The position numbers were made by a program, and so were the translations under genes. The notes beneath the pieces are model-generated. The model saw only the letters and a program-made list of their open reading frames with translations. It was not told the DNA's origin and searched no databases. A stretch of DNA of 32,316 nucleotides, filler included, from Stegostoma tigrinum (Eukaryota): NCBI RefSeq assembly GCF_030684315.1. It is 2 parts of 2 records of this genome, joined end to end, with 100 filler letters (N's around TTAATTAATTAA, not from the genome) between each part and the next. Parts side by side here need not be neighbours in the genome. Positions count along the whole stretch, not along the records: positions 1 to 13,569 come from NC_081396.1; 1 more part is not named here. One strand, given 5' to 3'. Of this stretch, positions 5,109-8,100 are shown one piece after another. The stretch's first letter is position 1. Every line of letters starts with the position of its first letter.

Positions 5109-8100
5109 AGGCTTCGTCGGAGACTCACTGATGATGTTACCTAGAATGGTGACAAAAAGTCTGAAAACTAACCTTCCAGCTCAGCGAGCAAACTCACATC
5201 CAGAACATCAACCTGAGCTACAAATCTTCTCAAAACTCGCCAACAAAACGCGAGTTGAAATTTCCTGAAGCCTATTATTAGGAGAAAGCAGACGGCAAAA
5301 GATTGAAAACTAAGGAGAAACAGAAAACCTAAGGAACAATGATTAATTTGATGTCACTGTGCCTGATTAAATGTAAACGATGACTTGCAATCAACTCTTT
5401 CGATCACAGGATGTTTCATTATATAGTTTGCAAGTCACCGAGGAATGCGAATCGAATTTCAAAATTATAATGTTCCAATCTTGTTCTTGAGCAAAAAAAA
5501 ACCGTAACGGTGGTCAAGAATCACCGCTCCACTCCGTCATGTATTTCAAACATATTTTCTGGATGGGAACGTTAATTGGCAAAAGGATAATTCGCAATTC
5601 TTCTGAAATACTGAGATGAAGAACAGACCTATTTCAATGCTTTGAACAGTTTAACAAATAACTGATATTAATTAATCGTTATATCCTTGAGTCAACAAGA
5701 TTTGTAGGAATAAAAACAAAACTTTAACTTAATGATTTAGTCTGCACAGCTGTCTACTTTTTCCCAATCCATGTAGTTAAAATGTACCCAGTTGTAATTT
5801 ACAACGCCGTGTCAACTCAAGGGTGACTCATTCAGATTCAACTGATGCCGTGGATTATGTGACCAATGCTCGAGTGTGTATTAATTACAGTTATCCAAGC
5901 ATGAACGCATCATGTGAAAGCTTGAGCAAATGCATAAAATGCCTTGTATATCAATGTGTTGAGACATGTGCAGAGTTTACTATTTTGCAGAAGCAATAAG
6001 TACAGAGTGTGAGAACACATTGCTTATTTCAAACAGGAAAATTGAACATTATTTACTTCAATTAATGTACTAGAGAAATTGTTGCGACTTCGCCATCTGA
6101 AGGATATTGTTCGCATTAGGTGAATGCAATTATCATTTATTCAGACAGGAGGTAAATTGGGCAATTCCCGGCAGAAACACCTTTTAAATTCATACATTTA
6201 AAAAAAACCTTATCCTTCACTGAAAAGCAGCTCATAAGACAATTAACTCGGCATTTGGAAACAAACCTAACAGGAAATACTTAACTTCGAATTTCAACAG
6301 AAATTGTTTTCCACACTATAACTCAATTTGTTTCTGTACAGTGTGTGCAAAAACTCCAAATTTAAAGAACTGTTTTAAGAAAATACGAAATTAATTTCGA
6401 TAATTAATCATTTCCTCTTGACTTTTGCTTAAATTAGTCCAATGTCCCGTCTCAATAATTTGGTTTGTCATAATGTCTTATGAAATGTATTGAAGGAGTA
6501 GGTAATCTCTGTTCAATGTGAAAGCATTCCCTTTCCTGTTAATACTTATCTGCGGACCAGTTTCTTTGAACAAAGTTAAATTAGAGTTAATATGTAATAT
6601 TTTACATGGATTAAATAGATTTATTAACGAGGTTCAAAACTGTTGCATAGTTTGTGCCTGTGCTACTTCTGACCACCTTGACAAGTGGCCTTAAACTTTG
6701 TCAATCTTCTGGTTTGGTCTCCAGTAACTGAAGCAATTCATTTTCATCTGGTGCTTCAAAAATTCTTTTATCTGCCATTATATAATGCTTACTTGGCCCC
6801 TCGGAAATGAAAACCCTGACCAAATCACTAAAATCAGAGTGAACAATACAGAAATGAAAGACAGACTGCAGGTGTTTTGAAATCGGTTGTGAGAAATAAT
6901 ATAACTGCCTTTAGAGTTACTTTTAATTGAGTGAGGCAGTTGAAATAGCATGTAATTTATTTCATTCCTCCCTCAGTTTTCTGTTCCCTGTTTGGGGACA
7001 CAATGGGTAATCAGTATTCATTGTGCATCTTATCATTGGAGTACATATCGTTGGTTGTTCATGTTACTGGTAAAGGTTAAATTAGGCTTCAAAGGATTTT
7101 ACTGCATTTGCATTCGAGCAGATCATGTGATGCAGCAACACAAATTGTTAGTTTTATTCCATAGTAGTTCCTCAACAGTTTGTATGATTCAAGAGGACTA
7201 TCAAAGTGCATTTAATTAATTTGTGAAATATTACTTCTACCGTGAAATGACTCTACAACTATTCGTGGTTGCTGAAAGGTTTTAATAGTTAACATGGTTT
7301 GTGTACTGTCAAACAGTTGGTCTGTATTGTCTCGTTAGTGTCGAGCTGATGGTGTTCTGGTCTCTTGTGGTGTGGTGGTGGTGTCCCTGAGTTTGAGATA
7401 TGTGGCCCGTGTTCAATTCCAATCTGTTGCAGTGGTACATAATGCCATCTAAAAACAATTTAAATTGGAAATTAAAAACACTTCGATTTCTTTGAGTGTT
7501 GTTGGAATTCCAAAAACAGATGCCTGCTTCAATCGCTGACTTACATAGCAGATGGAATTTGGGCGGGGAGGGGGAATGGGGTGATACTTTTATATTAAAT
7601 AAAAACAATGTTTAGGCATGGAATTTGGGCGTCACTAGTGGGGTTAATTCAGTTTTGCGCCACAGAAATTCCTGCTTCTGGCTTGCTCTTCCATCAATCG
7701 CATTAAAAAGATTCCCACTATTAATGGCCTCAAAGAATACTTGAGGTGACAATATTGAGCTTATCTTAATTTTATTCCAACGAGCATTCTATCTTAACAG
7801 GAGAGATTGATTGTTCAGGAGGATAAGGTTTCCACTGTATCCATCACTTGCAGCGAATAGTGGCAGATATTCAGTTAATCTTCAGTTTATGCCTCAGTTC
7901 GCCCAGTACGTCTCCTAAGAACACTTTTTTTTATTCAGCAGAAGCCATGTTAACTCATTCAGAGTCGAACCCAGTCGGTGTGAGTTCCCATGCCAGGAAA
8001 AAATGAAAACATTTTGCTGAAGCAAGGTGTACTGGGCTCGAAAGTGTATATTTGTTTTCTCTCTTTAGGAGCTGCCAGAACTGCTGAGGTTCTTCAACAA

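What the first reader, a model, noticed from the sequence alone, without database searches (positions are those of the whole stretch)
6745..7130. Candidate E-mu-like intronic enhancer of a shark IgM cluster
Seen within ~390 bp: E-box CATCTG 6745-6750; ETS-IRF composite consensus GGAAnnGAAA (GGAAATGAAA 6803-6812) with a related GAAATGAAA 6851-6859; TGCAGGTGTT 6867-6876 (muE5-like); TTTGGGGA 6991-6998 (muB-like); perfect octamer ATTTGCAT 7106-7113; TCATGTGA 7123-7130 (muE3-like). Known: these site classes make up mammalian E-mu and light-chain enhancers; the teleost enhancer lies 3' of C-mu; each shark cluster needs its own control elements. I know of no mapped shark IgH enhancer. Inference: an ancestral J-C intron enhancer.
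Basis: partly seen in the sequence, partly recalled or inferred. Interest (0 to 1): 0.7.

Follow-up and report, generated by a model that had tools for sequence, protein, structure and literature searches.

The report
Candidate shark IgM intron enhancer
In the long intron of a shark antibody (IgM) gene, a 390-base stretch holds modestly more B-cell control-protein binding words than shuffled DNA, and a 110-base core of it still aligns in more distant gene copies, so it is likely, though untested, a B-cell switch for this gene rather than a preserved copy of the mammalian one.

Summary
All 7 motifs are at the stated coordinates, 3.3-3.7 kb into the J-C intron of an open-frame shark IgM cluster. 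An eighth, a minus-strand EICE (6978-6987), was missed. With ten site classes from a published Ig-enhancer figure, 11-13 of 500 do, and significance is lost without the EICE or octamer. Contigs from two samples show paralogous introns. Five diverged contigs align best at about 6793-6900, a core with two RGAAATGAAA sites 47 bp apart. But the first EICE G is A in 39-46% of depth, the muE5 box is broken in three contigs, the 'muB' lacks GGAA, muA is absent, and the site order differs from E-mu. Depletion of variants in motifs is not significant once clustering is kept. Best reading (0.45): an IRF/ETS core plus an Oct/E-box pair forming a B-cell enhancer, built by motif turnover. Chance: 0.35. Ancestry with E-mu is unsupported. 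No functional data. The scan has noted other shark or skate Ig enhancer candidates, none alike in sequence. My searches of the held papers found no mapped shark IgH enhancer.

The parts
1638..1686 (+). Leader exon of the IgM VH
   Evidence: Joins in frame to V
1815..2158 (+). VH exon and its 23-RSS (heptamer CACAAAG at 2120)
   Evidence: Pfam V-set; nurse shark primer VG2-5 from PMC2435157 matches exactly at 1812; 73% identity to the nurse shark mu V
2527..2585 (+). D1 (2534-2547) with flanking RSSs, germline configuration
   Evidence: Sequence
2940..2987 (+). D2 (about 2947-2959) with flanking RSSs
   Evidence: Sequence
3354..3401 (+). JH segment; donor site at 3402
   Evidence: Primer JH2 matches exactly at 3380; J and CH1 join in frame
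3402..12955 (+). J-C intron, 9554 bp including an N gap at 12144-12274
6745..6750 (+). CATCTG E-box (weak member; the word occurs 22 times in the window)
   Evidence: no shown variant but near the edge of the laid stretch
6793..6900 (+). Core retained in diverged paralogous contigs; candidate IRF/ETS enhancer core
   Evidence: Five contigs of 274-2053 nt align over it at 80-88%; mean 15-bp-bin depth 309 and 160 against 137 and 86 in the rest of the stretch
6803..6812 (+). EICE-1, GGAAATGAAA; first G is A in 46% (X1, 6 contigs) and 39% (X3, 5 contigs) of depth; IRF half shows no listed variant
   Evidence: consensus from PMC9454692
6850..6859 (+). Second site AGAAATGAAA, 47 bp downstream, same form as the A variant of EICE-1
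   Evidence: one loose end lacks its 3' half
6866..6876 (+). muE5-like E2A box, 11 of 11 letters equal to mouse muE5 in reverse; broken by T>A at 6873 in three contigs
   Evidence: by eye
6978..6987 (-).
6991..6998 (+). TTTGGGGA; not accepted as muB because the GGAA core is missing
7106..7113 (+). Perfect octamer ATTTGCAT, the only one in the sequenced intron
   Evidence: no variant among the 40 of 76 rows shown
7123..7130 (+). muE3-like TCATGTG, 9 bp after the end of the octamer
   Evidence: no variant among the rows shown
12956..13252 (+). C-mu1 exon; no further C exons in the window
   Evidence: Pfam C1-set; 73-74% identity to nurse shark IgM; tblastn finds only V and CH1

Best explanation
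This stretch of a shark IgM J-C intron carries two RGAAATGAAA sites in a core that still aligns in diverged gene copies, plus an octamer and E-box pair, and likely acts as a B-cell enhancer for its own cluster, likely built from the same factor vocabulary as E-mu by motif turnover rather than inherited as a copy of it. Shown: the sites, their clustering (about p 0.02-0.03), the retained core and the variation between copies. Inferred from known Ig enhancers: IRF4/IRF8, with PU.1/Spi-B where the G is present, would bind the tandem sites; E2A would bind CAGGTG in the copies that have it; Oct2 with OCA-B and a TFE3/USF-type factor (recalled) would bind at 7106-7130. The complex would loop about 5 kb to the VH promoter, which lacks a proximal octamer in sharks, to open the cluster for rearrangement, transcription and hypermutation.
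For: Top B-cell motif window of the intron and of 27 kb; 11-13 of 500 shuffles reach it. Not a high-copy repeat: depth 175/80/103 against 10^3 to 10^5 in the repeat bins. No Rfam match in the intron and no Pfam match for the one ORF of the stretch that was scanned. Five diverged contigs align over 6793-6900; three of them are 1.4-2.0 kb long and show no second piece within 6730-7155. X1 depth at 6803 (380) is close to that at the J segment (421) and above all 39 other positions listed (maximum 269); X3 shows the same (266; J 220; others up to 149). No shown variant falls in 6804-6826, 6849-6872 or 7094-7146. The G-to-A form has a precedent: mouse lambda shadow enhancers read AGAA at this position and are active. 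IRF and E-box sites are the critical ones for hypermutation targeting in human E-mu; octamers plus muE5 form the catfish enhancer core. Some paralogous contigs (3 in X1, 2 in X3) carry a kappa-B consensus word about 30 bp 3' of muE3. OCA-B has a shark orthologue.
Against: No functional, chromatin or expression data. The motif lists were not blind, and significance depends on EICE and Oct. Variable places are about as dense here (64 and 63 in 426 bp, 0.15 per bp) as over the whole 11.7 kb (0.19 per bp, which includes repeats). The 390-bp bin ranks only 4 of 15 non-repeat intron bins in each of three runs, so similar local peaks may exist elsewhere; diverged contigs also align at 7798-8103 and 9914-10529. 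Depth is not copy number, and overlapping contigs count twice. By eye, the flanks of the diverged contigs are still homologous, so the core may be the high point of a roughly 75% identical region. 36 of 76 variant rows, apparently those under about 22% share, were not shown, so single-copy changes in Oct or muE3 are not excluded. The three long diverged contigs do not align over the Oct block. The teleost enhancer lies 3' of C-mu, a region absent from this window.
Confidence: 0.45

Rival explanations
1. Neutral intron DNA in which common short words happen to cluster and were picked after the fact; the retained core is a fluctuation in paralogue identity.
For: 73 of 200 and 47 of 200 shuffles reach the score without EICE or Oct; no significant motif sparing, 59 of 404 shifts; bin rank 4 of 15; critical bases of EICE-1 and muE5 vary and EICE-2 is deleted in one contig; 59 of 1000 shuffles hold two GAAA-N1/2-GAAA sites within 60 bp.
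Confidence: 0.35
2. The element is functional but is mainly a hypermutation-targeting (DIVAC-like) or IRF/interferon-responsive element, and the main transcriptional enhancer lies elsewhere (3' of C-mu, upstream of V, or near 4155-4555).
For: [quoted passage not shown]
Against: GAAA-T-GAAA has a 1-base spacer, not the 2-base ISRE spacer of PMC9454692; DIVACs usually overlap transcriptional enhancers.
Confidence: 0.13
3. It is the orthologue of mammalian E-mu, conserved since the jawed-vertebrate ancestor.
For: Same intron position class; exact mouse-like words for muE5 (11 letters), muE3 (7) and the octamer (8) within 265 bp.
Against: No muA, no muE1, no GGAA in 'muB', different order and orientation; muE5 and muE3 are not conserved between mouse and human, and no E-mu homologue is recognisable in birds; the catfish enhancer is 3' of C-mu. 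By simple arithmetic, about one shared 11-mer between a 220-bp enhancer and an 8.7-kb intron is expected by chance.
Confidence: 0.07

Closest known systems
Mammalian IgH intronic enhancer E-mu (PMC3972084 passages and Fig S4B text)
   Same: Lies in the J-C-mu intron; octamer, muE5-type and muE3-type E-boxes, IRF-type sites.
   Different: 3.3-3.7 kb from J; no muE1, muA or GGAA-bearing muB; muE3 follows the octamer; muE5 inverted; carries EICE-type composites; activity untested.
Ig lambda and kappa-3' enhancers, including mouse lambda shadow enhancers
   Same: RGAA-NN-GAAA composite sites plus an E2A box; G versus A at the ETS half differs between copies, as between canonical and shadow lambda enhancers.
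   Different: No MEF2 or NF-kB word in this copy; poor purine-rich 5' flank for PU.1 at EICE-1 (flank preference recalled); has an octamer; heavy-chain intron.
Channel catfish E-mu-3' (PMC1800861 passages)
   Same: Octamer plus muE5 logic in a fish IgH locus.
   Different: The catfish core has two variant octamers and lies 3' of IGHM; here there is one consensus octamer 230 bp from the E-box, inside the J-C intron.

Membership tests
Shark IgM minicluster | V-D-D-J-C-mu1 with RSSs and open frames | tested here: met
Shark IgM minicluster | Complete C-mu2-4, secretory and TM exons | tested here: inconclusive
   Not in the window; N gaps and out-of-order beta-TrCP exons follow, so this may be an assembly join
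E-mu orthologue | Located in the J-C-mu intron | tested here: met
E-mu orthologue | Adjacent muA-muE3-muB core with GGAA ETS sites | tested here: not met
   muA word absent, 'muB' lacks GGAA, muE3 is 125 bp from it
E-mu orthologue | Site order muE1-muE5-muE2-muA-muE3-muB-IRF-muE4-Oct | tested here: not met
   Order here is IRF/EICE, IRF, muE5 (inverted), EICE, Oct, muE3
E-mu orthologue | Alignable homology or continuity through intermediate taxa | not testable with these tools
   No genome held; no related loci found; no computed alignment to mammalian E-mu was made
B-cell Ig enhancer (any type) | Dense cluster of ETS-IRF, E-box and Oct sites | tested here: met
   11-13 of 500 shuffles; fragile when one class is left out
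B-cell Ig enhancer (any type) | Sites conserved among functional paralogues or species | tested here: inconclusive
   Core retained and IRF halves, Oct and muE3 show no listed variant, but the ETS G, muE5 and EICE-2 vary; 40 of 76 rows seen; functional status of the contigs unknown
B-cell Ig enhancer (any type) | Open chromatin and B-cell-specific, orientation-independent activity | not testable with these tools
   No RNA holder listed and no run labelled as a chromatin assay

The most novel reading that the evidence does not exclude
The tandem RGAAATGAAA core is present in nearly every IgM cluster and is the unmapped shark IgH enhancer. Cluster-specific gains and losses around it (G or A at the ETS half, muE5, EICE-2, a kappa-B site) form a natural allelic series that sets how often each cluster is activated, giving a DNA basis for the limiting-holocomplex model of shark heavy-chain exclusion.
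Probability: 0.15. Interest if true: 0.8.

Novelty: new member of a known kind. Interest (0 to 1): 0.45.

Why it matters
Shark IgH genes are independent miniclusters that lack the usual upstream octamer, and heavy-chain exclusion has been proposed to rest on infrequent assembly of a promoter-enhancer complex (PMC2435157, passages). I found no mapped shark IgH enhancer in the held library. A defined 400-bp candidate with a 110-bp core and natural variants between clusters makes that model directly testable by reporter, DIVAC and ATAC assays. It also bears on whether an intronic or a 3' enhancer position is older in jawed vertebrates. As it stands it is a reasonable candidate, not a demonstrated element.

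Tried and rejected
Whole-genome search: no genome held. Metagenome scans with the V protein (234 pattern hits, 0 confirmed) and with a 23-base core pattern (0) gave no related loci, so no cross-species intron alignment could be made. Sequencing runs: no RNA holder listed. The bisulfite run X5 gave depth of about 1 and nothing usable. Rfam: 0 matches in 3400-12143. Pfam: 0 of 8 intron ORFs match, of which 1 overlaps the finding; the 14 short frames suggested no gene. High-copy repeat origin rejected on depth; direct or inverted duplication of the stretch within 1-13560 is not seen beyond short chance pairs. PDB search returned only generic Ig heavy chains. The 'muB' assignment was rejected (no GGAA). 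A 1-base-spacer ISRE consensus that I recalled was not found in the library (0 papers), so it is not used as support. Protocol S1 of PMC3972084 holds no motif definitions. PMC3308330, PMC12227049 and PMC8201067 had nothing on shark enhancers in the passages searched; only 830 characters of PMC2275904 are held. Two shark IgH papers asked for by recalled PubMed ids are not held and may discuss J-C intron elements. No computed alignment to mammalian E-mu or of the contigs' loose ends was made; those comparisons are by eye. One search's first line used a wrong frame offset and is superseded.

Full report
LOCUS. Positions 1638-13252 are a germline-configuration shark IgM cluster: leader 1638-1686, V 1815-2119, D1, D2, J 3354-3401, an intron of 9554 bp, and C-mu1 12956-13252. 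Leader+V and J+CH1 join in frame. Pfam calls V-set and C1-set. CH1 is 73-74% identical to nurse shark IgM and 58% to IgM1gj (14 hits among 60 candidates). Two nurse shark primers from PMC2435157 match exactly. A tblastn with a full nurse shark mu chain finds only V and CH1 in the window. After N gaps at 13570-13669 come beta-TrCP exons in an order that one gene on the minus strand cannot give, so an assembly join is likely (inference). The finding lies 3343-3728 bp into the intron.

OBSERVATION. All 7 strings are where stated, and a second EICE lies on the minus strand at 6978-6987. I therefore used the ten site classes named in PMC3972084 (passages and the text of Fig S4), written as my own short consensus words. 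Six are present; YY1, muA, NF-kB and MEF2 are absent. The window is the best in the intron and in 1-27200, and 11 of 500 (class count) and 13 of 500 (weighted) shuffles reach it. Leaving out one class at a time gives 73 of 200 without EICE, 47 of 200 without Oct, 22 of 200 without muE3, 17 of 200 without the E2A box, and 3-7 of 200 for the other six. IRF, EICE and PU.1 words are nested, so these are not six independent sites. The excess is real but modest.

SITE ASSIGNMENTS (by eye). muE5 matches mouse at 11 of 11 letters but is inverted relative to the octamer. muE3 matches at 7 letters but lies after the octamer. The octamer is perfect. The 'muB' word ends one base before the GGAA that mouse and human share; the window has GGGAC, so it is not an ETS site. 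The paper states that muE5 and muE3 are not conserved between mouse and human, and that no E-mu homologue was found in birds. The catfish enhancer is 3' of IGHM. The match to E-mu is therefore one of vocabulary, not architecture.

PARALOGUES. Four runs of one study (two samples) hold about 0.6 of the words of 5600-8800. Three of them and one bisulfite run were laid on 115-11814 at 80% likeness. Contig depth in non-repeat intron bins is 107-198 in X1, against about 18-30 for single contigs. This suggests several paralogous introns along the whole length, although the tool warns that depth is not copy number. Many of the 40 rows shown (of 2770) differ from the window in all of the depth, so the window's exact copy is not in these runs; they may be another individual or a close species. 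Repeats stand out at 4795-5574, 7915-8304 and 8695-9864; the candidate bin does not (175/80/103). It ranks 4 of 15 non-repeat intron bins in each run (I dropped the 9 bins up to 3624 and the 6 repeat bins). One X1 record joins 4287 to 6572, a possible natural deletion that stops short of the candidate; this is a single observation.

On 6730-7155 (X1 and X3) there are 64 and 63 variable places, 0.15 per bp, against 0.19 per bp for the whole stretch including repeats, so there is no broad conservation. Depth peaks at 6790-6894 (mean 309 and 160 against 137 and 86). Five diverged contigs (750, 1718, 1455, 2053 and 274 nt; 80-88% identity) align over about 6793-6900 (16 of 68 pieces shown), and the three longest have no second piece over the octamer. 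Depth at 6803 (380, 266) is near that at J (421, 220). Against this, overlapping contigs count twice, I have no equally fine profile elsewhere in the intron, and the loose ends still look homologous by eye.

Of 76 variant rows 40 are shown, all with share of at least 0.22 in one run. 6803 G>A (6 and 5 contigs; 46% and 39%) removes the ETS half of EICE-1 and makes it the same as the site at 6850. 6873 T>A (3 contigs) breaks muE5. One loose end lacks the 3' half of the second site and has a broken E-box. One X1 contig deletes 6919-6988 including EICE-2, and one X3 contig diverges over EICE-2 and the 'muB' word. No shown row falls in 6804-6826, 6849-6872, CATCTG, the octamer or muE3, but single-copy changes in high-depth places would be hidden. 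With EICE-2 added, 2 against 6.7 (0.022; 38 of 404); narrower ranges are weaker. This is not significant once clustering is kept. A loose end after 7146 (3 contigs in X1, 2 in X3; 12 of 22 loose ends shown) holds a kappa-B consensus word that this copy lacks. With several rare classes to look for, this is only a hint.

HOW IT WOULD WORK. What the diverged copies appear to share is a pair of RGAA-AT-GAAA sites 47 bp apart. GGAAnnGAAA is the PU.1/Spi-B-IRF4 element (PMC9454692 passages). The AGAA form occurs in the mouse lambda shadow enhancers, which are strong hypermutation activators and weaker transcriptional enhancers, so the G/A change need not abolish function. IRF and E-box sites are the critical ones in human E-mu for this activity, and octamers with muE5 make the catfish core. 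I infer a two-part B-cell module: an IRF/ETS core, with E2A in some clusters, and an Oct2/OCA-B plus bHLH-zip pair 200 bp downstream. It would act on a promoter that lacks a proximal octamer. Binding, looping and activity are all inferred. Confidence 0.45; chance cluster 0.35; DIVAC-only or IRF-response element 0.13; E-mu orthologue 0.07.

LITERATURE AND NOVELTY. Six searches of the held library for shark IgH enhancers (listings seen) found no paper mapping one. PMC2435157 (passages) invokes a promoter-enhancer holocomplex without locating the enhancer in the passages seen. Most subscription papers are not held, including two shark IgH papers that I asked for by recalled ids, so absence from print is not established. 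Papers seen: passages of PMC2435157, PMC13043367, PMC3308330, PMC1800861, PMC9454692 and PMC8201067; passages plus supplements 4 and 8 (of 8) of PMC3972084; term searches with no hits in PMC12227049 and PMC2275904. The scan's own notes list other candidates (a skate J-C-mu octamer, an upstream block, a 3' block, a light-chain block). None is alike in sequence, and they are unchecked. If functional, this is a new member of a known kind, the Ig enhancers, and it fails membership as an E-mu orthologue. The interest lies in being a concrete, testable candidate in a system where I found none mapped.

Noticed in passing
window 551-604: The window's only other perfect octamer (597) also has TCATGTG within 50 bp (551), 1041 bp upstream of the leader ATG. 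2 of 1000 shuffles give two such pairs (post hoc), and a diverged contig aligns at 264-792. Possible distal promoter or enhancer element, although shark IgH genes are said to lack the upstream octamer.
   Followed up: partly
window 4155-4560: Second-best motif window (MEF2 4426, CAGGTG 4456, IRF 4485, CAGGAAG 4553), about 1 kb after J; 5 of 10 classes, a count reached or exceeded by 121 of 500 shuffles. One X1 record appears to delete most of it.
   Followed up: partly
paralogous contigs beyond window 7146: A kappa-B consensus word in 3 (X1) and 2 (X3) contigs about 30 bp 3' of muE3, absent from this copy.
   Followed up: partly
window 13570-32316: After N gaps, beta-TrCP exons on the minus strand are out of order (WD40 exon at 31.7-32.3 kb precedes the D-domain at 17.1 kb and F-box at 14.8 kb); C-mu2-4 are missing. 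Probably a scaffolding join or two gene pieces.
   Followed up: partly
   Followed up: no
window 2120-2126, 2960-2966, 3315-3323, 3376: Non-canonical RSS parts (V heptamer CACAAAG, D2 3' heptamer CACTGCA, weak J nonamer) and a J base that differs from nearly all laid contigs (WGHG); this copy may rearrange poorly.
   Followed up: no
window 3884-4072: 45-bp tandem repeat 0.5 kb after J whose copy number varies between contigs.
   Followed up: no
window 7051-7084: 34 bp with no shown variant and a second depth peak (284/190) just 5' of the octamer; no motif assigned.
   Followed up: no
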